The notes under the pieces were generated by a model. It did not search any database and was not told where the DNA came from. It saw only the letters and a program-made list of their open reading frames with translations. The position numbers and the translations under genes were made by a program. A DNA stretch of 64,000 nucleotides from Candidatus Bathyarchaeota archaeon (lineage in GTDB: Archaea > Thermoproteota > Bathyarchaeia > TCS64): NCBI GenBank assembly GCA_018396865.1, contig JAGTRB010000005.1, positions 1 to 64,000 of the forward strand, written 5' to 3'. Numbering within the stretch: position 1 is the first letter of the stretch; each line of letters starts with the position of its first letter. This document shows, in pieces, positions 17,299 to 53,000 of this stretch.

Positions 17299-18013
17299 GC
17301 CTATAAGGGTGGTAGTAGACAGCCTAGAGGCCTCCGCACATGATGAGGTCGTTAGCTATCTTAGGCTCGCTGGATGCGAGGTTGAGGTGAGAAGGCTTCC
17401 AGTATGCGACTTCGTAGTCTCGGACAGGTGTGGGGTTGAGAGGAAGGATGTGGATGACTTCCTCGGAAGCCTCAAAGATGGACGCCTCTTCAGCCAGGCG
17501 AAGGAGATGGCCTCCACCTATGAGAGGCCAATACTGGTGTTGGAGGGGCACCTACCAAGGGCCCTAAAGCACACAAGGGTCAGATCCTCATCCGTCTACG
17601 GCGCCTTGGCGAGCCTAGCCCTAGACTTCGGCTTCTCCATAATCCCAACGGATAATCTCGATTCGACCTCGATGCTCATCCATAGACTAGCCTACAGAGA
17701 GCAGGTGAGAGAGAAGCGCCCTATCCAGCTGAGGGAGATTAAGAGGAGGGTTCCCCTCCAGGAGCAGCAGATCTTCCTCTTGTCAGGTATACCAAAGATA
17801 GGGAGAACCCTAGCCGAGGAGCTCCTAAACCATTTCGGGACTCCCTTAAGGGTTTTCGAGGAGTTCGGGAGGGCTGAGGTGGAGACCTCCAAGAGCGGGA
17901 AGACAAAAAGGATAATCGGACCTATAGGAGATGTAAGAGGAATAGGGCCATCCATCGTCGAGGGTGCTAAGAGGCTCCTGACAACCCCATACGACAACCC
18001 TAGCCTTATTTAA
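17291..18013 (+). CDS. xpf: Short archaeal XPF/ERCC4-type structure-specific nuclease with C-terminal (HhH)2
   Basis: ERCC4 nuclease core (VVDSLEASAHDEV...VCDFVVSDRCGVERKDVDDFLGS) and C-terminal LLSGIPKIGRTLAEELLNHFG. The ATG at 17291 overlaps the mobB stop by 8 bp. Confidence 0.85.
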   Translation: MDEPIRVVVDSLEASAHDEVVSYLRLAGCEVEVRRLPVCDFVVSDRCGVERKDVDDFLGSLKDGRLFSQAKEMASTYERPILVLEGHLPRALKHTRVRSSSVYGALASLALDFGFSIIPTDNLDSTSMLIHRLAYREQVREKRPIQLREIKRRVPLQEQQIFLLSGIPKIGRTLAEELLNHFGTPLRVFEEFGRAEVETSKSGKTKRIIGPIGDVRGIGPSIVEGAKRLLTTPYDNPSLI

Positions 18014-18064
18014 AGTCGAACCAAAGAATAAGGTGTAAGCTATTAAATTGAGCATATTAATGTC

Positions 18065-18507
18065 CTACTTACACCGACTTAACCATTCTGCTATATATCT
18101 GGAGAATATCTCAAAATCTGATATCTTTGTTTGTGGAAATTCGTAGACGAGGTCTATATTTATGGATGCATACTCTTGGACGAGGAGATTTCGGAATCCT
18201 ATCATTGAAGCCATTACAATTTCAAAATTCTCCGGGATTATGCCGGCCTCCGCCAGGATGCTTAGGATATCTCCGTAGCTTTCAGGCCTTTAAGTTGGAG
18301 CTGAGATGATCTCATTGCCGATATCTAGATGCACTCGATGGAAACCTGAAGATACCTTTCAGCTGCTCCACTAATTATAAAATCTGCTTTGAAATCTTTC
18401 AAAGAGGTTTTTCGAATATCTTTAAAATATTTTATACACTGTTTAAGTTTACTTAATTTTGTCGTTATTAATTTTTTATCTATTTCAGAATTTGCTTCAT
18501 CATACAT
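18065..18507 (-). pseudogene. Disrupted HEPN (DUF86/HepT-like) toxin gene: in-frame TAG, frameshift, and R-x4-6-H degraded to Q
   Basis: ...AERYLQVSIECI, then TAG, then IGNEIIS; a frameshift, then ...IVMASMIGFRNLLVQEYASINIDLVYEF, which is the DUF86 C-terminal motif with His replaced by Gln. AT-rich DNA. Confidence 0.65.
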
Positions 18508-18546
18508 TCATCATACCTCTCTATGGCTCTTCTAAAATCCAAATAT

Positions 18547-18903
18547 TCACAATTTAACTATTATAGATTTCGCCTCAAAATTTATTCTTGATCCTTCACT
18601 TCTGCAATAAATAACTTCACCATTTTTTATTATCTGAAATTTCAGCAGAGTGGAGCGAGATTAATAATAGTTAAATCTACATTATTTCCAACCATTCCAG
18701 TAAGCATATCAACAATATGTAAATAATATTCAAGAAGTTTTTGGGACTTCAGAAAGTAAGATAGCTATGTCAATGTCACTTTGAGAAGTTTGACCTCCTC
18801 TTAAATAGGATGCAAAAAGATAGGCAACTAAAACACTTTCCTCATTTTCGAATAGCTTCCTAAGCTTTTTTATAACCTCTTCCAGCATATTACATTCAAC
18901 CAT
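18547..18903 (-). pseudogene. Disrupted minimal nucleotidyltransferase (MNT) antitoxin gene with two frameshifts
   Basis: Reverse-strand translation gives MVECNMLEEVIKKLRKLFENEESVLVAYLFASYLRGGQTSQSDIDIAIL, the GS...SDIDIAI NTase motif. The reading then continues only after two frame changes (LEYYLHIVDMLTGMVGNNVDLTIINL... / ...KFQIIKNGEVIYCRSEGSRINFEAKSIIV). Confidence 0.6.
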
Positions 18904-18966
18904 AAGAGAGCTTCATATATTTAACTTCAGCCGCTTTCATGAAGAATAGCCTTTTTCAGATGAGTC

Positions 18967-19728
18967 CTAGAAGATTAGAGATAGGCATGTCAGGGCGCCC
19001 TCACACTTCTCAAACTCGGTCATGGATAGGGGGATCACCTCAAACCCAGCCTCCCTAACAATCTCATGAGTTTTAGGGTAACCATCCGGCATTAGAACCG
19101 TCTCCCCTATGGTTAGGGTGTTAGCAGCGTACGCCTCTTCATCTGGAACTGTTAAAACCCTGAACCCCTCAAGCACTGGATTGTGGGCGTAGGACCTTGT
19201 AGCAATCATCATTCCCTCTCCTAGATATGTCACATAGCTCTTCAAATGAACAATCTTCGGATCTATTATGGTGTCAACACGAACCTCGAGCCACTCCCTC
19301 ATCTGGTCAACTCCCTCCACATTGGTTCGCTCAGTGACCCCGCTGATCAGCCGGTCCTCAAGGTGAATAACATCCCCTCCCTCCACTGTGGCCGGGGGAG
19401 TAGCCCTCTTAACCCTCAGATAACCCTTAAGAAACTCCTCCACCGCCTCTTCCTCGCCCCTCCTGCTCTCCCTAGCCATCCTGCAGATAAGCGCCCTATC
19501 CCCATGTATGACCGCGTTATCCTCAACGAAGCAGGAATCGGGTAGTAGATCATCTCTAGGAAGATGGATCACCTCAAGCCCGAGCTCGCTCAGAGCCCTA
19601 CAATATTTCCTGTGCTGCTCCCGGGCAAGCTTAAGATCGATCATATGTCTAAGGGGATGAGAGGATATGCATCTCCCATAACTATTCCCGGGCTCCCTAA
19701 CCAACGCACGCCTGAAGGTCAAATTCAA
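18967..19728 (-). CDS. Dimethylarginine dimethylaminohydrolase (DDAH)-like amidinotransferase-superfamily enzyme
   Basis: Overall DDAH-like sequence, with the C-terminal catalytic Cys context (EKCEGALTCLSLIF). Confidence 0.7.
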   Translation of the reverse strand: MNLTFRRALVREPGNSYGRCISSHPLRHMIDLKLAREQHRKYCRALSELGLEVIHLPRDDLLPDSCFVEDNAVIHGDRALICRMARESRRGEEEAVEEFLKGYLRVKRATPPATVEGGDVIHLEDRLISGVTERTNVEGVDQMREWLEVRVDTIIDPKIVHLKSYVTYLGEGMMIATRSYAHNPVLEGFRVLTVPDEEAYAANTLTIGETVLMPDGYPKTHEIVREAGFEVIPLSMTEFEKCEGALTCLSLIF

Positions 19729-19908: not shown

Positions 19909-19983
19909 GGGCCCGTAGCCGAGCTTGGATAAGGCACCGGCCTCCGGAGCCGGAGAACATGGGTTCGAGTCCCATCGGGCCCG
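19909..19983 (+). tRNA. tRNA-Arg (anticodon CCG)
   Basis: Acceptor GGGCCCG/CGGGCCC, anticodon stem ccggc/gccgg with loop cuCCGga, T-arm gggttcgagtccc. CCA is encoded at 19984-19986. Confidence 0.85.
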
Positions 19984-19996
19984 CCATTTCATTAGT

Positions 19997-20623
19997 TCAA
20001 TAAAATTTATAATCCCTCTCTCTTGAATTTGAGAACTGGATTACCATACATGTTGGCTTAGGAGGATAATAAGTACAATATGCGTCTATTGGCATTATAT
20101 TACCAAAATTATACACATCACGTGTTGTTCCAGAAACTAGTGTTGAAGTGATTTCACCTAACTTACATTCGCCGGCATGCATAGTAAATTCGGTCGGACA
20201 TATATAAACTGTCCAGTCAAAAGATGCACCAGAGGATAACAAACATGTTGGCCCACAATTACCATTATTAAAACCACATTCATAGTTTACACAGTTTCCA
20301 AATGCGCAAGCCTTACATTGATTGTTCTCACAATAACAGCTAGAAGCTGTGCCAGCACATGGCTTACATTCATCATTAGAGCAATAGCAATTTGTGTTTG
20401 TACCGGCACAAGCTGAATTGTAGTCTTTGCATTCTCCAGAGATACATCTTTGACAGCCAGGACCGCAATCATTGTATCCGTCTTCCCTATTCACACAATT
20501 ACCATTATCATCACACAATTTGCATGTTCCACAACTAATGCCTGGAGCATTTAAACAAGTGCCAAGACTACCACATTGTTTACATGTTTCCATCACATTG
20601 ATTACAATTATATATATCATCAT
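19997..20623 (-). CDS. Cysteine-rich secreted/membrane-anchored protein (~36 Cys) encoded in ~38% GC DNA
   Basis: The ORF extends to 20752; likely starts are M at 20623 (MMIYIIVINV signal-like) or 20593 (METCKQCG...). Repetitive CxxC/Cx(3-6)C spacing: CKQCGSLGTC, CGTCKLCDDNGNC, CYCSNDECKPCAGTASSCYCENNQCKAC. Its GC content is far below that of the host. Confidence 0.55.
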   Translation of the reverse strand: MMIYIIVINVMETCKQCGSLGTCLNAPGISCGTCKLCDDNGNCVNREDGYNDCGPGCQRCISGECKDYNSACAGTNTNCYCSNDECKPCAGTASSCYCENNQCKACAFGNCVNYECGFNNGNCGPTCLLSSGASFDWTVYICPTEFTMHAGECKLGEITSTLVSGTTRDVYNFGNIMPIDAYCTYYPPKPTCMVIQFSNSRERDYKFY

Positions 20624-20717
20624 ATATATAATTGTAATCGGGCTAAAGGGTATCGATGATGTATTTGTATGGAGGATTAGGAGAGTTTCATATAACTGGT
20701 TTGTTATGATAATAAAA

Positions 20718-21164
20718 TCAATATGGAAAATCTGAAACATGATATACTTCAATTCTCGGATTTCGAGACTTCACTTTATCAATGAAATCTTTCTTATCCA
20801 AAGAAACTAACATCGAATTATTGTTTAATGCAACTTTAAGATATATTGCGTCTATAGCATAGATGTCATATTCTGAGCATAGGGGGTATGCAGATATACA
20901 AAAAGCCTTGTCACAGTTGACTAAAAGTCTTGGATCGATCATAAGATCAAGCAATTTTTTAGCCTCATCTGCGGCGTCCTTTCCAACCCTCCTCGCTAAG
21001 GTCCCGCAGACCTCCTGGTAGATTATGCTTGGCTCAGTCAAGATGAGGCTATCTGGCACCTTGAGTAATATTTCAAGGCATTTCTCGCTATATATCTCAT
21101 CAGCCTTTAAGGCGGCTAGTAGGATATTAGAATCAAGGGTCAATAACCGACTATTAGGCCTCAT
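20718..21164 (-). CDS. vapC: PIN-domain toxin (VapC)
   Basis: N-terminal LTLDSNILLAAL (first acidic residue), internal D/E positions, and C-terminal SLDKKDF. The internal ATG at 21164 overlaps the upstream vapB by 11 nt. Confidence 0.8.
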   Translation of the reverse strand: MRPNSRLLTLDSNILLAALKADEIYSEKCLEILLKVPDSLILTEPSIIYQEVCGTLARRVGKDAADEAKKLLDLMIDPRLLVNCDKAFCISAYPLCSEYDIYAIDAIYLKVALNNNSMLVSLDKKDFIDKVKSRNPRIEVYHVSDFPY

Positions 21165-21435
21165 GTTTCCTAGATCTTCTCTCCTCCTCGAGCACGGTTG
21201 GGGGGCCAACCCACCTTCTTGAGACAGTCTCCCTGAGCCCTAGAAATCCTTGGATTCCCTTCCTCATCTCCCCCATTCTCTCCTCGCTTAGAATTATCAC
21301 ATCTTTGGAAGAGACAAGCTTAGAGAGGAGTTCGGCCCAGGTCCTACACCCCAACTCCACCTTTAGCCTTTTAAGCTCCTTAAGGACATCTTCGGGCAAG
21401 TTTTTCACGAGTATTGTTGCCAGGCTCTTCACCAT
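21154..21435 (-). CDS. vapB: VapB-like antitoxin (putative DNA-binding N-terminus)
   Basis: Small ORF immediately upstream of, and overlapping, the PIN gene. The N-terminus LVKNLPEDVLKELKRLKVELGCRTWAELLSKL is RHH/CopG-like. Confidence 0.65.
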   Translation of the reverse strand: MVKSLATILVKNLPEDVLKELKRLKVELGCRTWAELLSKLVSSKDVIILSEERMGEMRKGIQGFLGLRETVSRRWVGPPTVLEEERRSRKHEA

Positions 21436-21436
21436 G

Positions 21437-21454
21437 GTAATCTAGATAATCTAG
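21437..21454. promoter_or_regulatory. Tandem 9-bp repeat taatctaga x2 (TCTAGA palindromes) immediately upstream of vapB; candidate operator
   Basis: ggtaatctagataatctagaatat lies directly 5' of the vapB start on the minus strand. Confidence 0.35.
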
Positions 21455-21610
21455 AATATAAAATTTATCGAAATAACTTACCCTTCCCTAGATCGTTCCT
21501 CCCTCCAAACACGACATACTTCAATATTTGGATATAAGACGGCGAACGTCCTTCTCCAACTCAATATTTATAGTCTATAATTATTAATTTTATATAGCGC
21601 TTAATTTTAA

Positions 21611-24600
21611 TTATCTTTTTATGTTTATATCTCCTTCTTGGATGATTAGGTTTCCCTCTCTGAGTAAACCTCCAAGGATCTTCTCTAACTCCTCCTTGAT
21701 GCTCCTCGTGAGCTTCTTGAATCCGAATAATCGGGCCGTCTCCTTGATTAGTGCCTCTCTTCCCACTCCTATAGAATGGCCCGCTAGTAGGGTGATGGCG
21801 GCCCTCAACTCTTCTGGAGGTATGAACCTCAATGGCCTGAAGGATTCCTCTAGACCATCGGATGGGACTCTTATCTTCACCTCCATCGGCCACCTAGCCC
21901 AGAGGAAGTCACCCTTTATCACGAGGCTGCCCTTCCTATGAAGCCCCCTCGCCTCCTCCATGAAGGCATCCTTCAACTCATCCGAGAGCTTAGCGAGACC
22001 CAAAGCCCTTTTTATGCGGATGTATGCATGCTCGAGGTGGATGGGCCCATCCCTTTCCACTAGGGTAGGGAGCAGCTCCCTAACCCTCTCACGATATTGT
22101 TGGACCAACTCCCCCTTATCTTGGGTTTTCCCCTTTCCGGCGATACGCCTAGCTTTGAGCCTTGTTGGCCGGTATGTCTCAACCCCCGGCAGACTAGATC
22201 CTGCTGCCTCCAAAACCCTTACCTGGATGCTTCTTTTAGGGGGGGATATACTCGGCGGTGTGTTGGGCTTACCGACAATCCTTCCACGTGGCTGTAGAGA
22301 CCTCTCGATGGCTGACTTCAGCCTTTTAACCTCGGTCTCCCTCCTTTGAACCCAGTCCGGGGACCAGATCCTGTGTATCCTCCATCCCAGCCCTTCCAGT
22401 ATCTGCTGCCTCAGTCGGTCTCTGTCCCTAGCTGTGTACGCGGAGCGGTAGTTCTCTCCATCCAGTAGGATGCCTAGAATGAACCTATCGGGGTTCTTGG
22501 GGTCTTTGACCCCTATGTCAACCTTGAATGAGCTTGGCCCAACGCCTACTACGGCCTCATAGCCCATCCTACCGAGCTCAGATAAGATGTCCTCCTCCAG
22601 TGGATTTGAGGGGCCCTCCTCCCCTTTCTCCGCCTGCTGGTAGGCTTCGGATAGCTTCTCAGCATAAAGGAGGTAGCCGTGTAGGTGGTGAACCCCTGGG
22701 GCCTTTGTGGCCTCAACCTCAATATCTGAGGCCTTTATTGAGCTCACCAGGATGACCCTCTCCCTGGCCCTGGTTATAGCGACATTTAGTCTCCTCTCAC
22801 CCCCAGGCTTGTTCAGGGGCCCGAAGTTTAGCGTCATGCGGCCATTATGATCATAGCCGTAGCCGACGCTGAAGATTATCACGTCGCGCTCATCGCCCAT
22901 CACGTTCTCGAGGTTCTTCACAAAGAATCCCTGGAGGCGGTCCTCGACGAAGAAGGCCTCATATTCAGGGTGATCCCTGAGCCTTCGCTCTATAGCATCT
23001 TGAATAGTGTTCATCTGGCTTATGTTGAATGTTATGACTCCTAGAGTCTTGTCAGGGAAGTTTTTGAAGTGCTCGAAGACGAGGTCCGCTACCACCTCGG
23101 CCTCTCTGGGATTGTTCCTGGCTCCACCCCGGTCATAGATTCCATCTGGAACATAGATGAACTTGACGCCGAGGCTCGGGTCCCTCCTCCCCGGATGGGG
23201 GAATAGGTTCAGCCTATTCTCGTAGAACCTCTCGTTTGAGAAGTTTATCAGGGAGTCATGTCTGCTTCTATAATGCCATCTCAACATATTCACAGGCAAC
23301 CCTATTGATAGGCACTCATCCAAGACGCTCTCGAATACATCGAAATCGTAGTCGACAGTCTCATCCCAGTCGAAGTCCTCGTCCAAAGAGTACTGGAAGA
23401 ATGGGGTCGGAGGGAGCTGCTTGTTGTCGCCAGCCACGATCAGCTGTTCCCCCCTGTAGATGGCTCCCACCGCGTCCTCCGTGCATATCTGGGAGGCCTC
23501 ATCGAAGATCACCAGGTCGAAGCGGAGCTTTGGAGAGAGGAACTGGCTCACAGATATGGGGCTCATGAGGAGGCAGGGTTTAAGCCTCTTGAGGAGGGTC
23601 GGGATCCTCTCGAAGAGGTTTCGGATAGGCATGTGTCGGCTCTTCTTCAGGGCCTCCCTCCTCAGTATGGCTATCTCGGAGTCCGGGACCTGGAGGAAGA
23701 CCCCCTGGGGCTTCTGCTCGTTGGCTCTATCGATGACGCGGGAGGCCGAGAGGGCTATGAACCTCTGGTCTAGATCCTGAAACTCCCTGATCAGCTGTTC
23801 ATGCCTCTGCCCCCTGAAGCCTCCTAGGGTAGGCTCCTCTTGGAAGACGAGGTCGATGAGGCCGCTGTACATGGACTTATGGAACAGATCTAGCAGCCTT
23901 GAGGCCTCAGGCCTAAGCTCCATGAGCCTCTTCAGGAATCCTCCGAGCCCATTCCCCTCCAGGTCCGCCGTGATCCTCTTGAAATCTACCCAGGCTTGGA
24001 GTTCATCCAACCTGGAGCGTAGCTCCGAGACCTTCAGCCTGATCTCCTCAAGGGTTAGGGCGCTCCTATCCTTATCCCATAGGGGTTGAGTGAAGCCGTC
24101 TTCGAGGGTTTTCAGCAGGTCGTAGAGCCTATCCAGCCTTGCGCCTATCTCAGGATCAGGAGGTGTGGGGAACCCTCCATCCGAGACGTAGGCTATGAGG
24201 GGTTGTGGAGGCTCCCTTAGGATGCTTAATAGCCTCTTACACCAATCTATATCCTCAAGTATAGAGGGCCAATCCGTCGTTATTCCTGTATATCGCCTAC
24301 CGAAGATGGCTTTAATATCCTCAGACTCTGCCTCAGCAGCCTCCTCAAAGGCTCGGAGGGCCTCCACCTCCCTCAAGTCGGATACGAGCTCCATCAGGGA
24401 GTGGGGGTGGTCCGAGATCCTCAAGGATAATGCTGGAGTGCATACCTCATTCAGCGAGGTGAGCCTTCTAGCCAGCTCAGATGACCATTCTGCCACCAAG
24501 TCAAGGGGACTCTTTGTAAGAGGCTTACCCGTGTTTGGAAGCTTCCCATAAGGTAGGAGCCCCCTCAGCTTTAGGGTTCTCTGCCTCCACTCGCTAAGGG

Positions 24601-27166
24601 CTGCTCTGAGCCTCCTCCCAGTGAGTAAAAGCTCCTCTGAGGGCCTACTTCCAGCTGTGAGGTTGAGGACTACCCCCGGAGGGATCTGTCTTCGTGTTAT
24701 CTTGAGGGCCTTCCAGGCGTTCTTCAAGGCCTCCCTGGCTGAGTTGAAGTCGGGGGTGGGATCCCTGTAATATGACTTCATAACCCTCCTGAGGTCTTCT
24801 CGACGGGAGGCTATCTCCTGCTCAAGGGTCCTCAGCTCCTTAACGGCCTTTAGATCCTCTAAAATCCTGCTCAGAGGCTCCCGGCTTCTGCTCATCCTTG
24901 TGAGGAGGCTCCTGAACCTGTGGTACTGGGGTCTAAGGTATCTGAATGGGGAGCTACCCGGCCCCTCAAGCCAATCTATTATTGGTTGTGGATCTAGGTT
25001 CAGAAACCCCTCGTGATATCTTTCCATCAGGTCCTTTTTCAGGCCATCCCTTCGGAGATATAACCCCTCAGCCTCCCTGATCATCCTCGTCACCTCTTTC
25101 AGGCTTTTTATGTCAAGCCACTCAGCCTCTGGCCTGTTTTTAGCCTCGCAGATGCTTGTAAGCTCGGCCATTCTAACTATCTTCTCTATCGAGTCGATCT
25201 CGACCTGGAGGCCGAATATCCCCGCTATCTCAGCTGCGTGGGATTTCCAATCCTCAATCCATCCGGGCAGGGCCTCCACGTATTGGGCCAACTCTTCATT
25301 AAGCCTTGTGAGGGCTACATCGTCTTCTGTGTTCGGGGGTAATAGCTCCTTTACCCTCGCCCATCTCCTCTCAACCTCATCCGCGACCCCCCTCGGAAGC
25401 CTGAATATACTTGGGCTGTATAGCTTCATCAGCCTATCCCTAGACCTCCAATACTCAGCGTAGCCCTCAAGCCTCTTCAGGGCCTCCTCTTCTATCCCTT
25501 TCAGTCCTCCCCCCTCAAGCCACCTTCTTGGAGGCCTCGGAGAGCTCGAAACTAGGGTGGAGATCTCCTTCAACCTCTCAAACTCCCCAAGGATGCTGGG
25601 GATGCCTAGACCCAGCATCTCGCTGTAACCTTTGATGCCCTCCAGCTCCTCAACAGCCTCGAGGATCTGCCCGAGGAGGGTCGCCCATCTGGAGCGGGAT
25701 TCAGAGGTGAAATCCTCCTCCCTGCATCCCCTCCATGGAAACCTCCCATCTAATGCGATATACCACACATTTGAGAGGTCTCTCACCAATTTCTCCAGTT
25801 CTTGGAGCTTCCGGGGGGTGAGGGATTTGAGTCCCTGATACTCCGACGGGATGAATGGAGCATCCTCAAGCCTGGCAAGCCTCCCGAGGAGTTCGAAGGC
25901 TGAGAGCCCGAGGGGGGGCCTCTCCATGTGCAGGGCCCTCACATACCTGTTGAGGAGGTCCCTCCTCTCCTTTAGCCTCTCCAGCTCCTCCTCGGAAAGC
26001 CTAGCCCTTGGCTTCAGGTGCTCGTTCAGTGCTCTATTGAGTTCCGCGACCACCTCCCTCTTATTCGCCTTATGGCTGTGGAGCTCTAGGCAGAAGTCGT
26101 CGAGCCCCCTCTCTTTTAGCCTGTTGTAGACCACCTCTAGCGCAGCCATCTTCTCGCTTACGAATAGGACGCTCCTCCCAGCGGCTATGAACTCGGATAT
26201 GATGTTGGCAATCGTCTGGCTCTTCCCCGTGCCTGGGGGGCCGTGGATGACGAAGGACTGCCCCCTCAAAGCGTACTGGATGCAGAGCTGCTGGCTGCTG
26301 TCTGCGTCGAGAACTTGGAACATCCTCTTGGGCTCAAGTATCTCATCAAGCTCATCCTCCTTAGGTAGGGGATCCTTAACCAGTCTGGGGTTTGGCACAC
26401 CAGCTAGGGCGGATATGATTTGGTTCTTAGCTATCTCCTCGGCGTTCTCGGATAGGTCTTGATACATCACCAGCTTGTAAAAAGAGAATAGCCCAATCCC
26501 TACCTCCCCCTCCACCCTCCATCCCAGCTCCCCGCAAACGGCTGAAACTTCTTGAAGGTAGGTGAGGACATCCACATCCTCGAAGTCCGGGAGGGGTGGA
26601 AGCTCGAACTTGTAGTCATACCTCAGTTTGAGGGTTAAGGCAGGATTCAGGACCACCTCCTCCTCCACGGGGGGAACCTCTATTCTATAGGGTGAGCGGG
26701 GGTTATCCCTCCTCAACTCTATTGGAACTAGGAGTATTGGAGATCTTACTGCCTCCCCCGACCCGGCCTCCCTCCAGTTGAGCATCCCAAAGGTTATGTA
26801 GAGGATCCTGACGCCCCTCTCCCTATATTCAGATGTGGACCGCCTATAGAGACTCCTCAGGATCCGCTCAATCCATTGAGGGTCATCTCCATGGGGCACG
26901 AGTTGGGTCTTCCCGGGGCGCATGGACCCTGAAGGACCGGTCCATCCATCCTTTGGAGGCTGCCAGATCTCCCACCCCTTCCCTTTGACAACTAGCCTCT
27001 CGAAGATGGTCTTGAGGTCTGGAGCCAATATCTCGATATAGGAGCTCTTTGTTGGCGCGAAGTAGATCAGGCGGTTCCGCCTGCTCAGGTCGATGAGCCT
27101 CTGCTTCCACAGCTGGATTCTTTCCATTACCTTGGAAGTGGAGGCCTCATCCAAATCGATCAGCAA
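21611..27166 (-). CDS. 1851-aa DUF4011-like N-domain / Upf1-like SF1 helicase with ~800-aa insert / Vsr(DUF559)-like endonuclease / DUF3320-like C-terminus
   Basis: Walker A VIHGPPGTGKSQT. Motif II VIFDEASQ roughly 800 aa later. Then LRWHYRSRH, GVITFN, and motif VI LNVAITRARERVILVSS. Then FKVDIGVKD...FILGILLDGENYRS...RDRDRLRQQILEGLGWRIHRIWSPDW (PD-(D/E)xK/Vsr-like). The C-terminus is ...GDFLWARWP...FGFKKLT. The N-terminal region (LIYFAPT...ILYITFGMLNW) is DUF4011-like. The start may be the M at 27127. Confidence 0.85.
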   Translation of the reverse strand: MLIDLDEASTSKVMERIQLWKQRLIDLSRRNRLIYFAPTKSSYIEILAPDLKTIFERLVVKGKGWEIWQPPKDGWTGPSGSMRPGKTQLVPHGDDPQWIERILRSLYRRSTSEYRERGVRILYITFGMLNWREAGSGEAVRSPILLVPIELRRDNPRSPYRIEVPPVEEEVVLNPALTLKLRYDYKFELPPLPDFEDVDVLTYLQEVSAVCGELGWRVEGEVGIGLFSFYKLVMYQDLSENAEEIAKNQIISALAGVPNPRLVKDPLPKEDELDEILEPKRMFQVLDADSSQQLCIQYALRGQSFVIHGPPGTGKSQTIANIISEFIAAGRSVLFVSEKMAALEVVYNRLKERGLDDFCLELHSHKANKREVVAELNRALNEHLKPRARLSEEELERLKERRDLLNRYVRALHMERPPLGLSAFELLGRLARLEDAPFIPSEYQGLKSLTPRKLQELEKLVRDLSNVWYIALDGRFPWRGCREEDFTSESRSRWATLLGQILEAVEELEGIKGYSEMLGLGIPSILGEFERLKEISTLVSSSPRPPRRWLEGGGLKGIEEEALKRLEGYAEYWRSRDRLMKLYSPSIFRLPRGVADEVERRWARVKELLPPNTEDDVALTRLNEELAQYVEALPGWIEDWKSHAAEIAGIFGLQVEIDSIEKIVRMAELTSICEAKNRPEAEWLDIKSLKEVTRMIREAEGLYLRRDGLKKDLMERYHEGFLNLDPQPIIDWLEGPGSSPFRYLRPQYHRFRSLLTRMSRSREPLSRILEDLKAVKELRTLEQEIASRREDLRRVMKSYYRDPTPDFNSAREALKNAWKALKITRRQIPPGVVLNLTAGSRPSEELLLTGRRLRAALSEWRQRTLKLRGLLPYGKLPNTGKPLTKSPLDLVAEWSSELARRLTSLNEVCTPALSLRISDHPHSLMELVSDLREVEALRAFEEAAEAESEDIKAIFGRRYTGITTDWPSILEDIDWCKRLLSILREPPQPLIAYVSDGGFPTPPDPEIGARLDRLYDLLKTLEDGFTQPLWDKDRSALTLEEIRLKVSELRSRLDELQAWVDFKRITADLEGNGLGGFLKRLMELRPEASRLLDLFHKSMYSGLIDLVFQEEPTLGGFRGQRHEQLIREFQDLDQRFIALSASRVIDRANEQKPQGVFLQVPDSEIAILRREALKKSRHMPIRNLFERIPTLLKRLKPCLLMSPISVSQFLSPKLRFDLVIFDEASQICTEDAVGAIYRGEQLIVAGDNKQLPPTPFFQYSLDEDFDWDETVDYDFDVFESVLDECLSIGLPVNMLRWHYRSRHDSLINFSNERFYENRLNLFPHPGRRDPSLGVKFIYVPDGIYDRGGARNNPREAEVVADLVFEHFKNFPDKTLGVITFNISQMNTIQDAIERRLRDHPEYEAFFVEDRLQGFFVKNLENVMGDERDVIIFSVGYGYDHNGRMTLNFGPLNKPGGERRLNVAITRARERVILVSSIKASDIEVEATKAPGVHHLHGYLLYAEKLSEAYQQAEKGEEGPSNPLEEDILSELGRMGYEAVVGVGPSSFKVDIGVKDPKNPDRFILGILLDGENYRSAYTARDRDRLRQQILEGLGWRIHRIWSPDWVQRRETEVKRLKSAIERSLQPRGRIVGKPNTPPSISPPKRSIQVRVLEAAGSSLPGVETYRPTRLKARRIAGKGKTQDKGELVQQYRERVRELLPTLVERDGPIHLEHAYIRIKRALGLAKLSDELKDAFMEEARGLHRKGSLVIKGDFLWARWPMEVKIRVPSDGLEESFRPLRFIPPEELRAAITLLAGHSIGVGREALIKETARLFGFKKLTRSIKEELEKILGGLLREGNLIIQEGDINIKR

Positions 27167-37699: not shown

Positions 37700-37782
37700 G
37701 CGGGGGTTCCCGAGGGGCCAAAGGGGGCAGGTTCAGGACCTGCTGGATCAGTCCTCCGTGGGTTCGAATCCCACCCCCCGCA
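37700..37782 (+). tRNA. tRNA-Leu (anticodon CAG), long variable arm
   Basis: Acceptor GCGGGGG/CCCCCGC, anticodon stem gcagg/cctgc with loop ttCAGga, variable arm tggatcagtcctccg, T-arm gtgggttcgaatcccac. Confidence 0.8.
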
Positions 37783-37909
37783 CCATTCTGGGGGACAGAT
37801 ATTTCTAAAGCATTATTCTCATGGTACCCTTAATTAAATAAACCTAATTAGGCCTCCGAAAATTCATCATTATGTTTTTTATCTTTTGAGGATGAAATAA
37901 ATGTGGGCG

Positions 37910-38296
37910 TTATTCAATTCCCCATTTTTTGGTTACCTTAACTAATATAAAGACCACAAAGGCTACAAGTAGGAAGGTGATCAAGGCTCCTATGAAGTGC
38001 CCTATGCGGAACGGTCCCAGCACAAAGGCCTCCCATTGAATACCCGGCAGAATTAGCGTTATTATGGGCATGATCAGGTCGTTAACTAGTGCCTGTACAA
38101 GTGTGCCCAGATATAAGCCCAGGATGAACGCGACGGCCATTCCCATAACCTTGTACTTTGAGATGAAGTCCAGAAACTCGTTCCAGAGGCCTTTTGGTGG
38201 AGGTGGGGGTGGAGGTGCGGGTTTAGGCTCTAGTAAAGCCTTTATATCCTTTAGAACCTCCAGTATCTCCTCATCTCTAGTTCTTGATCTAGACAT
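37910..38296 (-). CDS. mscL: Large-conductance mechanosensitive channel MscL-like protein with Pro-rich N-terminal extension
   Basis: KVMGMAVAFILGLYLGTLVQALVNDLIMPIITLILPG...ALITFLLVAFVVFILVK follows the MscL TM1-loop-TM2 pattern. It is preceded by PAPPPPPPPKG. Confidence 0.65.
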   Translation of the reverse strand: MSRSRTRDEEILEVLKDIKALLEPKPAPPPPPPPKGLWNEFLDFISKYKVMGMAVAFILGLYLGTLVQALVNDLIMPIITLILPGIQWEAFVLGPFRIGHFIGALITFLLVAFVVFILVKVTKKWGIE

Positions 38297-38551
38297 ACCC
38301 TTTCCATATCTAAGAAGAAGTAAGCTTATTTAATCTTTACGAGCATAAGCAGCCCAACACGGTTATGTGAGAGATTCAAGAAACATGAATCGACTAAATG
38401 ATCCTCATAAATTTTTAATTTTCCAGAAGATAGCGTGGGGTTTTAATCATTTTTGTCAACACTCCGCCCTTTAAACTAAAAATGATACCTTGTATCCCAC
38501 GTCCAACTCAATATTTATATAATGCCTCTTTCCTAAAATGCTGACACAGCT

Positions 38552-39391
38552 ATGATTGACATATTTGGCATTTTAGGAAAGATGCTCGAAAACGTTATCT
38601 ATGCCATTCCGGCCATTATCGCTGCTTTGATAGTGATATTGATAGGATACGCGGTCGGCTCTATAGTTGGCAGGGCTGTAAACAAGATCGTCGAAAAAAT
38701 CGGAATAGAAAAGACATTCGACCAAACTATTGCTGGCAAAGCCTTTAGGGCTTCTGGCATAGACCTCTCCAGTCTAATAGGGGGATTAGTCAAAGCCTTC
38801 ATTTTGATGTTATCCTTAATTATGGCGGTACAGATATTGAACATCCCAGGGATATTTGGCACTTACTTGATGAATCTAGCAGACTATCTTCCAAGACTTC
38901 TTGGAGGTATCTTGATAATATTATTAGGAACAGTGTTCGTCGACTTCCTCTCAACCTTTATTGGTAGGATGATCCGGCCGATGTTTCCAGCTGAGAAAAT
39001 TGAAATAGCAGATATGCTGAAGAACCTGCTTTTCATCGGGTTAATCGCCTTCGTTCTCCTGTTAGCACTCGATACTATGCTTCTTTCGGGTAGCACAGTT
39101 TATCCGCTGATACTCGGCTTTGTAGCGATTGGCGCAGGCATATCCTTGACAGATGGCCTAATAAAATCAATAACGGATGATCATCCTGAGTTCAGGGAGA
39201 TCGCGGGATATGCGAAATTTATGCTTTACAGCATTTTCCTAATGATAGGAGCAAGTGCAATATTCGCAACATACCCAGGCGTAACTGAAATTATAGCTAA
39301 TGCTTCATGGGCCTTTGCAATAGCTCTCGCAGTAATGCTAATACCCATTGCATATACTTTAATGAAAAAGATATCAAAGGAAACAAAATAA
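38552..39391 (+). CDS. Polytopic membrane protein, function unknown
   Basis: 6-7 TM helices. A possible resemblance to the conserved TM-helix repeat proteins of MscS-like families is a weak impression. Confidence 0.5.
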   Translation: MIDIFGILGKMLENVIYAIPAIIAALIVILIGYAVGSIVGRAVNKIVEKIGIEKTFDQTIAGKAFRASGIDLSSLIGGLVKAFILMLSLIMAVQILNIPGIFGTYLMNLADYLPRLLGGILIILLGTVFVDFLSTFIGRMIRPMFPAEKIEIADMLKNLLFIGLIAFVLLLALDTMLLSGSTVYPLILGFVAIGAGISLTDGLIKSITDDHPEFREIAGYAKFMLYSIFLMIGASAIFATYPGVTEIIANASWAFAIALAVMLIPIAYTLMKKISKETK

Positions 39392-39644
39392 GTCATGAAC
39401 AACTACCCTAAACCCATTTTTATAAGAGTATTTTTATATTTAATATTTTTCTCAATAATGGTTATTTATAGTTAAACTATAATGAGTAATGAAAAAAGGA
39501 AATTAAGATAATGGTAAGAAGGAGAAAAGTTTTTAAATACGAAGAACCCGATTAACAATCGGGTTTTCGATTCTGAAGAATAAAAACGAGAAAGGTAGGT
39601 TTTATAAAAAGGAGATGAGACCCTTTCATTAGTTCCTAGATCTT

Positions 39645-40049
39645 TCAGTATTCTACCTTTCTAGGAAGGCTCTTTGCTTGTTCAATCCAATTTTTGACTT
39701 GGTTGAGCGTGGGCGGTCTCCTTACAAGTTTTTTCTCATTGTTCACTTCAATTATCTTAGCATAGAGATTCTCGGGAACCCTTTTAGCTAGTTCAACCAC
39801 CGAATCCACACCGGCCTCCTCGAGGAGGTCTGAATATTCTTCACCCACCCCCTTGATCCTGAAAAGGTCTGCAAGGTTCACCCATTCGAGGATCAATTTT
39901 TCAGAGATACCGGTCTTCTCTGAGAGCTCCTTCCTCCCCTTTCTAGTTGCACCTGCGTTAAGCAGATCATCTGTGGTCTTTATACCGACTTCGAGAAGCT
40001 TATTAGCGTATACTGGTCCAATCCCCTCAATCTTCTCTATCTTTGCCAT
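39645..40049 (-). CDS. Helix-hairpin-helix protein (DUF4332-like)
   Basis: IEGIGPVYANKLLEVGIKTTDDLL and IKGVGEEYSDLLEEAGVDSVVELA are two HhH units. Confidence 0.6.
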   Translation of the reverse strand: MAKIEKIEGIGPVYANKLLEVGIKTTDDLLNAGATRKGRKELSEKTGISEKLILEWVNLADLFRIKGVGEEYSDLLEEAGVDSVVELAKRVPENLYAKIIEVNNEKKLVRRPPTLNQVKNWIEQAKSLPRKVEY

Positions 40050-40297
40050 GTCAATCCGCGATCAAAATTTAAAAATTCTAATATATATCCTTTTCCATGT
40101 TAACATTAAATCTGAGCAAAAACTCTCCAACTGGATGGGTAATCTTAAAAGTTATGAGGGACCTTCCTAAGGTCTAGCTTTGAATCAATGTTTCCAAGTT
40201 AAAAGTCATTTTAACAAGATCGATCTCAATTTTTCAAATTGGAAATAAAATTGTCATAATTCGCATCTGTTCTAATGATGTTGACGGTCCCAAGATC

Positions 40298-41251
40298 CTA
40301 TTTATCTTGAAATATGGATAGGGGCAGGTGGGCTGAGACTATCCAGTTAGGCTTGTCGACTACCTCGCTTAACTTTAGATCCACTACGACGCTGCATAGG
40401 ATGTAGGCCTCCCAGCGCTCCATCTTCCACCTATCAGCTATGAAGTTCACCATCCTCCGGATCGCATCCCGTGATGCTTCGAAGAGGTCCGGACCTATAC
40501 CGAGGGTTGAATGGTATCCAGCCTCATCGGATATGCATCGAGGGCGTGGGGGAGTTATATACTGGGGAGCATCTAGGTTCATCCTCTTCCTGAGTTTGAA
40601 TCTTAGGCTGAGGTGCATTGGGGCCTCTATGCCTGTGACGCATACTTCTCCATCTCCCTGAGCCGCGTGGGGATCCCCTACGGAAAACAACGCGCCATCC
40701 ACCCACACCGGGAGGAGGAGCCTGGACCCCCTCATCAGGTGTTTGATATCCATGTTTCCTCCATGCATCCCTGGAGGCATTACGGCCCTCTTTCCAGACT
40801 CCTTGGGAGCCACACCCATGGTCCCGCAGAATGGCTCAAGGGGGATCTTTATGTCCTCCCTGAAGTAGGTATGGTCTCCATAGGAGAGGTCCCAGATCTT
40901 TAGCTTAGGCTCCCTGAACTCATCCTCCAAGAGGCCGAATCCTGGGATTATTGCGGACCAGCCCCAGGGTCCGGGGTGGATATCCAGAACCTCCACCTCA
41001 AGGGCGTCTCCGGCCTCTGCTCCCTCCACATATACCGGCCCCGCGAGGGGGTAAACCCTCCCCCAATCTATCTCCCTTAACACCTCGGGGTTGGAGGCGG
41101 GATTTATCTGGCCGTCTGAGACCTCCCTCAACTCATAGTATACGGTATCTCCTGGAGATACTCTTATCACAGGTTCAAGTTCTCTATCCCAGTAATAATG
41201 AACCCTATCTTCGGGGAATATATGCAGGGTCATCACTATCAAAGAGTCCAT
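40298..41251 (-). CDS. Acetamidase/formamidase (FmdA/AmdA) family amidohydrolase
   Basis: Family-wide similarity, including GGNMDIK and GDPHAAQGDGEV. Confidence 0.85.
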   Translation of the reverse strand: MDSLIVMTLHIFPEDRVHYYWDRELEPVIRVSPGDTVYYELREVSDGQINPASNPEVLREIDWGRVYPLAGPVYVEGAEAGDALEVEVLDIHPGPWGWSAIIPGFGLLEDEFREPKLKIWDLSYGDHTYFREDIKIPLEPFCGTMGVAPKESGKRAVMPPGMHGGNMDIKHLMRGSRLLLPVWVDGALFSVGDPHAAQGDGEVCVTGIEAPMHLSLRFKLRKRMNLDAPQYITPPRPRCISDEAGYHSTLGIGPDLFEASRDAIRRMVNFIADRWKMERWEAYILCSVVVDLKLSEVVDKPNWIVSAHLPLSIFQDK

Positions 41252-51218: not shown

Positions 51219-53000
51219 TTAATTCTTTATCGCCTCAACCCAGCTGAACTTCTTCTGGAGGGTTGCGGGATAGTAGTCCCTCCAGCTGTATCCGATCCTC
51301 TTACCCCATATGTAGTAGACTCTGGGATCTATGTAGCTCTTAAGGGATGTGGTTAGGTTGTAGTCTCTAGTCTCTCTCTGGATCTCGACTTGAATTCTCA
51401 GTTCCTCGAGCCTATTCTTGTATCGAATTTTCAAATCATCTAATTTTTTTAAATTTTTTTTCATACAATTATCTCTCTCAATTTTTATTTTGCCTATACT
51501 CTTTCTCAAATTTTCAATTTTAATCTTTTTTCTATTTAATCTTTCCTTCAAACTTTTTATAGATTTTCCTTCAATCTTCCTTTTTTCAATTAATCCTTTC
51601 ACTTCTTCCATCCTTTTTCTTTCTTCATTCAAAGCCATCTCTTTTTTATATATTCTCTCCTTAAACCTTTTCTCCATATCACTCATTTTTTCTTTCAGCT
51701 TTTTTTCAGCTTTTCTATATTCAATTTTTAACTTTTCAATTTTTTCAATTTTTTTCTTAAGAGATGTTTCCCAAGTCTTTTGAGTTGCCCTCTTATGATT
51801 GCATATTTTTGCAGCCTCAAGGTTTGCCATAATTGCAATATACCTTTTTAAATACTTGGGATCTTCCTCCCTGACCTCTCTCTTCATCAGCTCTCTCTCC
51901 ACCGCGCTCGTCGCGTAATAGGTTCTGAAGACCTTAGCTGATAGGCCTGGGTGAACCTCATTCAGAAATTCGCTCACTCTCTCTGAGTCTATCCCCTCGA
52001 ATAGGGTGGAGCGCGCCATGACCATGAACTCCTTGAGGTTCCCAATGACCTCATCCGGCAATCTCGCGGTTATGAGGTGGCGAATTGAGTCCTTTCCGAG
52101 GAAGTCGAAGGTTACCGTGCCATCCTCGTTAAAGGTTAAGTGCTCTGGCCTCAGGGTTGAGGCCCCCACCGTGTCGGCTTCATCCTCATCCTTCTCGTCC
52201 CCCACCCTTATCTTCAGGGCGTCTATAAGGTAACATACCGTCGCTGTCTTCCTCCTTTTAGGGTCCTCAGAGGTGAGGTTCTCAAAGATGTGCCTCTTAA
52301 CCCTCTCTATGTTGTTCCCAAGCTCTCTAGCCTTCTCGAACTTCTCCAGCTCCCTCTTCTGCTTAAGGTAGGAGGATTCTGAGAGCCAGACATACTTCAT
52401 CTTCCCGCTCAGCTTATCCCTCCACCTGGCTATCCACATCGCATTCGGGTCCCAGACTATTCCCTTCCAGTTCCCCTTCGGCCTCGGAGCATCTGGGGAG
52501 AGGTTGAGCTCTATATCCTCCTCCCTGGGACCCTCCTTCCAGGAGCCACGCCTCGGGTGGTTTCCTCTGCCCATGAATATGGAGCTGGGCTCGACTGTGT
52601 AGTTCCCTATCTCCATCCTGACCCCGTCGACCCAGGCGTATCCATATAACTCCTTGTTCTCCTCTCTCCTCTTCCTCCTCTCCTCAGCCAGTCTCCTCCT
52701 CTCCTCCCTTGATAGGCTTGCCCTATACTCCCTATCCCTCAAAACCTCTCTGAATACCTCGGAGTAGTCTACATCCCCTGGCTTAACCTCGATCCCCAGC
52801 TTCTTAGAGAAATCTCGATGAAAGTTACTGGCGAAGACAGGATCCTCGACGTATGGCGTCCCCATCTTCTTAGCCCATGCCACAGCCATCTCCTCCTGCT
52901 CGGGGGTCAGCCTGAACTCAACTCCCCTGACCCAGACCCTAAGCCCCTTCGCCTCATACTTTGGAGGCACCAATACACCGTTATGTTGCAGCCTCTCCAT
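51219..53000 (-). CDS. topIB: Eukaryote-like type IB DNA topoisomerase with K/E-rich coiled-coil linker
   Basis: DTVGASTLRPEHL; FDFLGKDSIR is identical to human TOP1; KVFRTYYA; AKICNHKR; the catalytic Tyr lies in TTSLKSYIDPR. The linker at 51420-51800 is encoded by low-GC DNA. Confidence 0.9.
   Translation of the reverse strand: MERLQHNGVLVPPKYEAKGLRVWVRGVEFRLTPEQEEMAVAWAKKMGTPYVEDPVFASNFHRDFSKKLGIEVKPGDVDYSEVFREVLRDREYRASLSREERRRLAEERRKRREENKELYGYAWVDGVRMEIGNYTVEPSSIFMGRGNHPRRGSWKEGPREEDIELNLSPDAPRPKGNWKGIVWDPNAMWIARWRDKLSGKMKYVWLSESSYLKQKRELEKFEKARELGNNIERVKRHIFENLTSEDPKRRKTATVCYLIDALKIRVGDEKDEDEADTVGASTLRPEHLTFNEDGTVTFDFLGKDSIRHLITARLPDEVIGNLKEFMVMARSTLFEGIDSERVSEFLNEVHPGLSAKVFRTYYATSAVERELMKREVREEDPKYLKRYIAIMANLEAAKICNHKRATQKTWETSLKKKIEKIEKLKIEYRKAEKKLKEKMSDMEKRFKERIYKKEMALNEERKRMEEVKGLIEKRKIEGKSIKSLKERLNRKKIKIENLRKSIGKIKIERDNCMKKNLKKLDDLKIRYKNRLEELRIQVEIQRETRDYNLTTSLKSYIDPRVYYIWGKRIGYSWRDYYPATLQKKFSWVEAIKN

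What the first reader, a model, noticed from the sequence alone, without database searches (positions are those of the whole stretch)
51219..53000. Eukaryote-type topoisomerase IB with a low-GC, K/E-rich repetitive linker
The active-site blocks are strongly conserved against human TOP1: FDFLGKDSIR is identical, and KVFRTYYA, AKICNHKR and the Tyr in SLKSYIDPR are present. Topo IB is a eukaryotic and poxviral enzyme found in only a few archaeal lineages (Thaumarchaeota and relatives), so its presence is phylogenetically informative. The ~120-aa linker, a coiled coil in the eukaryotic enzyme, is encoded by very AT-rich repetitive DNA (51420-51800) with KIEKIEKLKIEYRKAEKKLKEK-type repeats. That composition is what makes it prone to expansion or contraction.
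Basis: partly seen in the sequence, partly recalled or inferred. Interest (0 to 1): 0.6.

Follow-up and report, generated by a model that had tools for sequence, protein, structure and literature searches.

The report
Archaeal topoisomerase IB, long AT-rich linker
This is an intact, already annotated eukaryote-type topoisomerase IB gene from a Bathyarchaeia archaeon; its very long coiled-coil linker has a fixed length across the class, and only in this small lineage is it written in strikingly AT-rich codons, so the enzyme is ordinary and the composition is a modest curiosity.

Summary
The ORF 51219-53000 (-) is real. It encodes a 593-aa long-form topoisomerase IB with all three Pfam domains and the full catalytic pentad (R265, K303, R359, H402, Y556). 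Its best structural relative is Caldiarchaeum TOP1 (6z01). The protein is 100% identical to an NCBI entry, "DNA topoisomerase I [Candidatus Bathyarchaeia archaeon]".

The linker is about 134 aa and is predicted with confidence as a two-helix hairpin about 100 Å long. The His-to-Tyr spacing is 154 residues, against 91 in human and 67 in Caldiarchaeum. That spacing is identical in 45 Bathyarchaeia loci, and there are no linker indels among strain variants or 84%-identical relatives. The DNA is low-complexity, not truly repetitive. The "prone to expansion or contraction" reading is therefore not supported.

The AT-rich tract is real and larger than amino-acid content explains. GC3 is 0.25 in codons 383-526 and 0.71 elsewhere, and AAA/GAA replace the genome's preferred AAG/GAG. 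It includes the conserved catalytic-His segment. It is confined to one small clade and absent from the nearest outgroup. No donor lineage was found, and its origin (change in place or import) stays unresolved.

The parts
51219..53000 (-). topIB coding sequence, 593 codons plus a TAA stop
   Evidence: ORF listing. Pfam Topoisom_I_N, Topoisom_I and Topo_C_assoc. 100% identical to an NCBI protein named DNA topoisomerase I from a Bathyarchaeia MAG.
52383..52994 (-). N-terminal DNA-binding (cap) region, aa 3-206
   Evidence: PF02919, E 1.4e-50; coordinates checked.
51699..52373 (-). Catalytic core, aa 210-434. Carries R265 (52206-52208), K303 (52092-52094), R359 (51924-51926) and H402 (51795-51797).
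   Evidence: PF01028, E 1.8e-62. Residue mapping to human R488, K532, R590 and H632 through the 1rrj_A alignment. RKRHY in 78 of 78 complete homologues.
51372..51773 (-). Linker, aa 410-543: two long helices (410-477 and 482-543) joined by the turn G478-K-S-I (51558-51569). Net charge +22.
   Evidence: AlphaFold2 model, linker pLDDT mostly 83-94. G478 is invariant or nearly so in alignments A1 and A3. Charge and 3-4 hydrophobic spacing.
51423..51854 (-). Low-GC3 tract, codons 383-526 (GC3 0.25, GC 0.25). Covers the conserved His-402 segment and most of the linker.
   Evidence: Change-point fit, codon counts and comparison with relatives.
51228..51419 (-). C-terminal domain, aa 528-591, with the catalytic Tyr556 (51333-51335)
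   Evidence: PF14370, E 2.4e-15. Y556 aligns with human Y723 and CsTOP1 Y477 (PMC8748870).
53001..53191 (-). AT-rich upstream intergenic region with a TATA-like ATAAAATTTTAAA about 45 nt before the ATG and a GAGGGG motif just upstream of it (inferred promoter and ribosome-binding site)
   Evidence: Read directly from the sequence; GC 0.37-0.385. Not tested further.
51418..51783 (+). 121-aa antisense ORF, a mirror artefact of the polypurine sense strand and not a gene
   Evidence: 22% of codon-order shuffles give an antisense open stretch at least as long. The outgroup without the AT shift has 162 aa open.

Best explanation
**What it is.** The gene encodes a working long-form (eukaryote-like) type IB DNA topoisomerase, inherited vertically within Bathyarchaeia.

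**How it works (established TopIB chemistry, inferred here from residue conservation).** The cap and the catalytic core clamp duplex DNA. Tyr556 attacks one strand to form a 3'-phosphotyrosyl link. R265, K303, R359 and H402 stabilise the transition state. The downstream duplex swivels to release supercoils, and the strand is then resealed.

**The linker.** Between the core and the Tyr domain lies a positively charged antiparallel two-helix hairpin of about 134 residues, roughly 100 Å long. That is roughly twice the length of the human linker and more than twice that of Caldiarchaeum TOP1. Its length is fixed across the class, so it is a selected structural arm. By analogy with the human linker, it most likely runs along the rotating downstream DNA and tunes the friction of controlled rotation and the religation rate. 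This functional role is inferred.

**The AT-rich tract.** The AT-rich coding of codons 383-526 is a separate, DNA-level feature. It arose once on the stem of a small clade: the window lineage plus the P0007, P0008 and P0010 lineages. It changes synonymous codons and pushes replacements towards AT-coded residues (R/A/L/Q in relatives, K/I/N here). The linker's length, register, turn and net charge are all kept. I lean towards change in place along a vertically inherited linker, but import from an unsampled low-GC relative is not excluded.
For: **Identity**
- Three Pfam domains with E-values from 1e-15 to 1e-62.
- PDB sequence match to 6z01 at E 6e-141 and to human TOP1 at about 1e-73.
- Foldseek top hits are 6z03/6z01 and human TOP1.
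- Pentad mapped residue by residue and present in 78 of 78 complete homologues.
- Caldiarchaeum TopIB is biochemically active (PMC4824112).

**Vertical inheritance**
- The gene order M20 peptidase, topIB, HpcH aldolase, FmdE is conserved in L081-L084 and L086.

**Linker**
- Helices 410-477 and 482-543 predicted with high confidence.
- His-Tyr spacing is 154 in 45 other loci, against 91 in human and 67 in CsTOP1.
- Net charge is +23, against a median of +25 in relatives.
- The linker's role in controlled rotation and religation is described in PMC9094055 and PMC8748870.

**Tract**
- GC3 is 0.24-0.33 in the tract and 0.71-0.85 in the core in five clade sequences from independent samples. The outgroup L085 has 0.85 and 0.90.
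- All other loci have linker GC3 within about 0.23 of core GC3.
- The conserved segment aa 383-414 also has GC3 0.28.

**Leaning towards change in place**
- The nearest non-clade relative is L085 in both core and linker.
- No donor appeared among 45 loci, in a linker-only search of 5.8 billion proteins, or in an exhaustive search of 1.84 billion representatives.
Against: - No biochemical data exist for any Bathyarchaeia TopIB, so the linker's function is inferred by analogy.
- Sharp tract boundaries and a tract that extends into a strongly conserved protein segment are easier to produce by segment replacement than by gradual local drift.
- Low-GC, probably foreign DNA is present elsewhere in the window next to tRNA genes.
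- The likelihood comparison of a stationary tract against an ameliorating one is undecided: lnL -107.6 against -106.4 on 67 sites.
- No mechanism is known that would confine an AT-ward shift to 430 nt of one gene.
Confidence: 0.8

Rival explanations
1. Mosaic gene. On the clade's stem, codons of about 375-530 were replaced through homologous recombination by the matching segment of a TopIB gene from a low-GC Bathyarchaeia relative. The tract is an imported patch that has not yet reached host composition.
For: - The boundaries are abrupt and nearly the same in two lineages (aa 383-526 and 373-533).
- The tract includes conserved codons whose only change is synonymous.
- It has a single origin.
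- The stem branch is 0.81 in the linker and 0.13 in the core.
- The window has other low-GC islands beside tRNA genes.
- Bathyarchaeia with genome GC 0.33-0.35 and the same 154 spacing exist (L016, L020, L029).
- An amelioration model with root GC3 of about 0.10 fits slightly better than stationarity.
Against: - No donor was found. Low-GC lineages are no closer in the linker (0.26-0.30 identity) than any others, and two database-wide linker searches found only the clade itself.
- The nearest linker relatives are the same as the nearest core relatives.
- Low GC3 persists in three lineages although twofold synonymous sites differ by 0.28-0.30 between them.
- Recombination between a GC3 0.8 gene and a GC3 0.2 gene would have very little DNA identity to work with (inference).
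Confidence: 0.3
2. The AT-rich, rare-codon tract is kept by selection in this clade. It could slow translation between the core and the Tyr domain, hold down TopIB protein levels, or keep this stretch of mRNA unstructured.
For: - AAA and GAA are minority codons in the window's genes (0.22 and 0.15) but dominate the tract.
- The composition is retained in three lineages despite substantial synonymous turnover.
- A stationary model is not rejected.
- The tract sits at a domain boundary.
Against: - More than 40 other Bathyarchaeia lineages with the same architecture show no such tract, so it is not needed for folding or function.
- Tract GC (0.25-0.30) is close to the intergenic GC of this genome (0.31-0.38), which neutral composition would also give.
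- There is no direct test.
Confidence: 0.12
3. One reading: the linker DNA is a slippage-prone repeat whose length varies between strains.
For: The tract has nine A-runs of 6-8 nt and weak low-complexity repeats.
Against: - There are no linker indels or frameshifts in six 98-100% variants or four 83-84% relatives.
- Spacing is 154 in the window and 45 other loci.
- There is no tandem array.
Confidence: 0.03
4. Artefact or decayed gene: an assembly chimera, or an inactive homologue.
For: The composition break inside a single gene looks like a join.
Against: - The same tract, in frame, is present in independent assemblies from different samples: an NCBI MAG, SRR28530381, SRR16588181, SRR25522543, JGI 3300045871 and JGI 3300043569.
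- The pentad is intact.
- Nonsynonymous differences between the window and L082 are far fewer than synonymous ones in the core (0.11 against 0.33).
Confidence: 0.01
5. An overlapping antisense gene (51418-51783, +) drives the composition.
For: A 121-aa ORF lies on the opposite strand.
Against: Codon-order shuffles give an equally long open stretch in 22% of trials. The frame and length are not kept in L082 and L084. The outgroup without the AT shift has a longer one.
Confidence: 0.01

Closest known systems
Caldiarchaeum subterraneum TOP1 / Cs-TopIB (PDB 6z01, 6z03)
   Same: Archaeal long-form TopIB with the same three domains, the same pentad and no eukaryotic N-terminal tail. It is the best sequence match (E 6e-141) and the best fold match. 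Its relaxation activity has been shown biochemically (PMC4824112).
   Different: Its linker is 53-57 aa (His410 to Tyr477, 67 residues). The window protein has about 86 extra residues (438-523) and a 154-residue spacing.
Human TOP1 (e.g. 1k4t, 1a36)
   Same: Same fold and catalytic residues (R488, K532, R590, H632, Y723), with FDFLGKDSIR identical. Its linker is also a positively charged antiparallel two-helix arm.
   Different: The human linker is 77 aa (636-712) and the protein has a 214-aa N-terminal domain that is absent here. Sequence E-value is about 1e-73, and identity over the structural alignment is 25-32%.
Long-linker TOP1 of Asgard archaea (noted in Takahashi et al. 2022, PMC8748870)
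   Same: [quoted passage not shown] The Heimdallarchaeota locus L050 has a spacing of 164.
   Different: A different lineage and a slightly different length. That paper does not mention Bathyarchaeia. No AT-rich tract is reported there, and none is seen in L050.
Short TopIB of poxviruses and bacteria (variola 3igc, Deinococcus 2f4q)
   Same: They share the catalytic core fold and chemistry (Foldseek E 5e-08 to 7e-08).
   Different: They lack the large N-terminal cap region and the coiled-coil linker. The window protein is clearly the long form.

Membership tests
Type IB DNA topoisomerase, long (eukaryote-like) form | Domain set: Topoisom_I_N, Topoisom_I catalytic core and the C-terminal Tyr domain | tested here: met
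   PF02919 at 172 bits, PF01028 at 211 bits and PF14370 at 57 bits, all well above their gathering scores.
Type IB DNA topoisomerase, long (eukaryote-like) form | Catalytic pentad Arg-Lys-Arg-His-Tyr (human R488, K532, R590, H632, Y723) | tested here: met
   R265, K303, R359, H402 and Y556 align residue by residue with 1rrj_A. My earlier use of R284 was wrong and was corrected.
Type IB DNA topoisomerase, long (eukaryote-like) form | TopIB fold: a cap and catalytic clamp with a protruding two-helix linker | tested here: met
   AF2 model with mean pLDDT 83. The Foldseek top 16 hits are all TOP1 structures, with E-values from 1e-22 to 7e-40. This rests on a predicted structure only.
Type IB DNA topoisomerase, long (eukaryote-like) form | Mg- and ATP-independent relaxation of positive and negative supercoils through a 3'-phosphotyrosyl intermediate | not testable with these tools
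   This needs recombinant protein. It has been shown for the homologue Cs-TopIB (PMC4824112).
Contingency locus / slippage-prone coding repeat | A tandem repeat array in the coding DNA | tested here: not met
   TRF finds only low-complexity matches of about 2-6 copies with scores of 52 or less.
Contingency locus / slippage-prone coding repeat | Length variation among close strains | tested here: not met
   No linker indels among 10 clade proteins. Spacing is 154 in the window and 45 other loci.
Horizontally imported segment (mosaic gene) | Composition that departs from the host with sharp boundaries | tested here: met
   GC3 is 0.25 against 0.71, 2*dLL = 94.6. This is the only mosaic gene among 44 long ORFs in the window.
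Horizontally imported segment (mosaic gene) | Phylogenetic conflict between the segment and the rest of the gene, or an identifiable donor | tested here: not met
   The nearest relative is L085 in both parts, and no donor was found. Power is limited by compositional bias and by sampling.

The most novel reading that the evidence does not exclude
The fixed, double-length (about 100 Å), +22-charged coiled-coil arm gives Bathyarchaeia TopIB a distinct way of controlling DNA rotation, or of holding a second duplex. In addition, the clade-specific 430-nt AT-rich, rare-codon tract is a selected feature, such as a translational brake or expression throttle at a domain boundary, and not a neutral relic.
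Probability: 0.15. Interest if true: 0.5.

Novelty: new member of a known kind. Interest (0 to 1): 0.3.

Why it matters
As an enzyme it adds little. The protein is already deposited and named, and TopIB in this phylum has been known for a decade. Two points have some value.

1. The roughly 154-residue His-Tyr spacing is a strictly conserved, class-wide architecture. It is about twice the human linker length. That offers a natural test of how linker length sets rotation friction and religation, a question so far addressed with human mutants and chimeras.
2. A sharply bounded synonymous-codon switch inside one conserved gene, shared by a small clade, is a clean case for studying how intragenic compositional mosaics arise and persist in archaea.

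The survey also shows that treating long-form TopIB as a marker of Thaumarchaeota and their relatives is out of date.

Tried and rejected
1. **Tandem or direct repeat analysis of the linker DNA.** Only low-complexity matches were found.
2. **NCBIfam scan.** No family matched.
3. **First motif-regex pass over the loci.** It was too strict and half the loci failed. It was replaced by an alignment-based pass.
4. **R284 as the first catalytic Arg.** This was wrong. The human alignment shows it is R265.
5. **Parsimony polarisation of substitutions.** The tract gave AT>GC 14 against GC>AT 3, and the core gave 13 against 38. I rejected this as evidence for amelioration. With skewed composition and near-saturated divergence, parsimony alone predicts ratios of up to about 2.3-3.5 to 1 in these directions.
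6. **Two-state likelihood test of a stationary against an ameliorating tract.** Only 67 sites were available and the lnL difference was 1.2, so it is undecided.
7. **Donor searches.** I tried identity ranking over 45 loci, Dayhoff-recoded identity, a linker-only word-index search (one same-clade fragment), an exhaustive representative search (only the clade and one 32% fragment) and NJ trees. None found a donor.
8. **Antisense ORF as a real gene.** Rejected.
9. **Pfam scan of the flanks of the Chloroflexota-labelled locus L062.** It found only ordinary metabolic genes that do not indicate bacterial or archaeal origin.
10. **Rfam scan of the window.** It found only three tRNAs and nothing in or near topIB.

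Full report
**1. The observation**

The window carries an ATG-to-TAA ORF of 593 codons on the minus strand at 51219-53000. GC in 200-nt windows falls from about 0.53 to 0.23-0.29 between about 51400 and 51800. Per-codon analysis shows the fall is not just K/E/I-rich protein content, because third-position GC drops from about 0.7 to 0.23-0.37.
- Lys is AAA in 25 of 34 linker codons and in 3 of 38 codons elsewhere.
- Glu is GAA in 14 of 18 linker codons and in 5 of 54 elsewhere.
- The window's other genes use AAG at 0.78 and GAG at 0.85.

A two-change-point fit places the tract at codons 383-526 (nt 51423-51854), with GC3 0.25 inside and 0.71 outside. The DNA is not truly repetitive. Tandem Repeats Finder and the repeat finder give only short low-complexity matches.

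**2. What the gene is**

- Pfam finds Topoisom_I_N (aa 3-206), the Topoisom_I core (210-434) and Topo_C_assoc (528-591), all far above threshold.
- The best solved relative is Caldiarchaeum subterraneum TOP1, 6z01 (E 6e-141). Human TOP1 chains score about 1e-73.
- An AlphaFold2 model (mean pLDDT 83) matches those same structures by Foldseek, at about 1e-39 and 1e-32.
- The HMMER alignment to human chain 1rrj_A (chain index + 200) maps the catalytic residues. Human R488, K532, R590, H632 and Y723 correspond to R265, K303, R359, H402 and Y556.
- In one search I had wrongly used R284 for the first Arg. With the correction, all 78 complete homologues in my set read R-K-R-H-Y.

**3. Whose gene it is**

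The protein is 100% identical to an NCBI entry, 'MAG: DNA topoisomerase I [Candidatus Bathyarchaeia archaeon]' (P0001). Hundreds of Bathyarchaeia proteins match at 58-66% identity and 99% coverage. The gene order M20 peptidase, topIB, HpcH/HpaI aldolase, FmdE is kept in relatives from independent samples, so the gene is native and vertically inherited.

TopIB in MCG/Bathyarchaeota was reported in 2013-14 (PMC3930316). The genome scan found at least 545 loci. These include Aenigmatarchaeota, Hadarchaeota, Methanomethylicales, Jordarchaeia, Heimdallarchaeota and MAGs labelled Chloroflexota, Anaerolineae and KSB1. The claim that the enzyme occurs in 'only a few archaeal lineages' is out of date.

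**4. The linker**

The model gives two helices, 410-477 and 482-543, joined at G478-K-S-I, with pLDDT mostly 83-94. At 1.5 Å per residue each arm is roughly 95-100 Å long.
- G478 is invariant or nearly so.
- Hydrophobic residues follow a 3-4 spacing.
- The net charge is +22.

The His-to-Tyr spacing is 154. It is 91 in human (H632 to Y723) and 67 in CsTOP1 (H410 to Y477). Published linker lengths are 77 aa for human and 53-57 aa for CsTOP1. Takahashi et al. remark that most archaeal TOP1 have short linkers and that some Asgard genomes have 'substantially longer' ones. They do not mention Bathyarchaeia.

Spacing classes in my set:

| His-Tyr spacing | Lineages |
|---|---|
| 154 | Window and 45 other loci, nearly all labelled Bathyarchaeia or Bathyarchaeota |
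| 57-60 | Jordarchaeia, Methanomethylicales, some Bathyarchaeia and one Aenigmatarchaeota-labelled locus |
| 74 | A Hadesarchaea locus |
| 109-117 | The bacterial-labelled MAGs |
| 122-142 | Most Aenigmatarchaeota-labelled loci |
| 164 | A Heimdallarchaeota locus and one other |

**5. Is the linker length unstable?**

No. Six variants at 98-100% identity and four relatives at 83-84% have no linker indel. The 583-aa and 572-aa entries differ only at the N-terminus. The spacing is constant down to about 50% overall identity. The tract has nine A-runs of 6-8 nt, yet no frameshift appears in five lineages. The linker is the fastest-evolving part by substitution. Between the window and L082, nonsynonymous differences are 0.34 per codon in the tract and 0.11 in the core.

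**6. The AT-rich tract is clade-specific**

- Across about 78 loci, linker GC3 stays within about 0.23 of core GC3 everywhere except the window (0.70 core, 0.28 linker) and its 84% sister (0.81 core, 0.36 linker).
- With more clade members, tract GC3 is 0.24-0.33 and core GC3 is 0.71-0.85 in WIN, L086, L083, L082 and L084. The nearest outgroup L085 (65% identity) has 0.85 and 0.90. The shift therefore arose once, on the clade's stem.
- Boundaries are similar in two lineages: codons 383-526 and 373-533.
- The tract includes the strongly conserved segment around His402 (aa 383-414, GC3 0.28). Relaxed protein constraint on the linker alone cannot explain it.
- Among 44 long ORFs in the window, topIB is the only gene of mixed composition. 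The other low-GC islands are intergenic or are whole low-GC genes.

**7. Origin of the tract: unresolved**

Points against import:
- The window's linker is 18-31% identical to every other 154-class linker, and low-GC lineages are no closer.
- A linker-only search of 5.8 billion proteins and an exhaustive search of 1.84 billion representatives returned only the clade itself plus weak fragments.
- In NJ trees the nearest non-clade relative is L085 for both core and linker.
- The low GC3 persists in three lineages whose twofold synonymous sites differ by 0.28-0.30.

Points for import:
- The boundaries are sharp.
- Conserved codons are affected.
- The linker stem branch is long (0.81, against 0.13 for the core).
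- Low-GC DNA is present beside two tRNA genes in the same window.

Polarised substitution counts looked like amelioration. Parsimony bias predicts the same direction, however, and a two-state likelihood comparison could not separate the models (lnL -107.6 against -106.4). I lean slightly towards change in place.

An assembly artefact is excluded because the tract recurs in independent assemblies. An overlapping antisense gene is excluded by shuffling and by the outgroup.

**8. Mechanism**

*Shown:* the family, the fold (predicted), the catalytic residues, the linker architecture and its conservation.

*Inferred from established TopIB knowledge* (PMC9094055, PMC8748870):
- nicking by Tyr556 with a 3'-phosphotyrosyl intermediate;
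- controlled rotation of the downstream duplex against the positively charged linker;
- religation.

*Inferred further:* an arm of about 100 Å could contact roughly three helical turns of downstream DNA and so alter friction or religation kinetics.

**9. Verdict**

This is a correctly recognised and already annotated enzyme. Its class-wide long linker is apparently undescribed for Bathyarchaeia in the papers I could search. The clade-specific compositional mosaic is real but unexplained.

Noticed in passing
window 19909-21730: tRNA-Arg(CCG) at 19909-19986 is followed directly by a low-GC island (GC 0.32-0.37). The island carries a Cys-rich 251-aa ORF with a hydrophobic N-terminus (19997-20752, -, GC3 0.28 throughout). 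It also carries two small adjacent ORFs (20718-21209 and 21154-21435, -) that resemble a PIN-type toxin and antitoxin pair by eye. This may be integrated foreign DNA.
   Followed up: partly
window 37700-40350: tRNA-Leu(CAG) at 37700-37785 is followed by a second low-GC island. It holds a multi-pass membrane protein ORF (38552-39391, +, GC3 0.43) and a 134-aa ORF (39645-40049, -). This is the same tRNA-adjacent pattern as at 19.9 kb.
   Followed up: partly
window 17981-18990: About 1 kb at GC 0.34 has no ORF of 150 aa or more and no Rfam match at gathering threshold. Its content is unexplained.
   Followed up: no
window 21611-27166 (-): A very large ORF (1851 aa) with a P-loop motif (GPPGTGKS), so it looks helicase-like. 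It lies next to the putative toxin-antitoxin pair. It was not scanned against any family library.
   Followed up: no
L057, L062-L064, L068-L070, L072, L073, L076, L079, L080: Full-length long-form TopIB (43-46% identity, intact pentad, His-Tyr spacing 109-117) occurs on contigs labelled Chloroflexota, Anaerolineae or KSB1, up to 337 kb long. The 2016 literature states that among prokaryotes the long form is confined to Thaumarchaeota. A Pfam scan of the L062 flanks found only metabolic genes that do not settle bacterial or archaeal origin.
   Followed up: partly
L055, L056, L059-L061, L066, L067, L071, L074, L077: A short-linker form (His-Tyr spacing 57-60) exists in Jordarchaeia, Methanomethylicales, one Aenigmatarchaeota-labelled locus and also in some MAGs labelled Bathyarchaeia. 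Two linker-length classes therefore coexist within that class label. The Jordarchaeia loci show a mild GC drop in the linker (0.30 against 0.43).
   Followed up: no
window 51219-53000 compared with L082 and L084: Core GC3 differs between sister lineages: 0.71-0.73 in WIN and L083, 0.82-0.85 in L082 and L084. Most polarised changes on the WIN and L083 branches are GC>AT. This suggests a genome-wide GC decline in the window's lineage, although parsimony bias could contribute.
   Followed up: partly
P0026 (alignment columns 334-399): One Bathyarchaeia homologue (667 aa) has a K/E-rich, helical-looking insertion of about 66 aa at a different place, after 'EFSEDSES' in the catalytic core. This is a separate case of a charged insertion in this family.
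   Followed up: no
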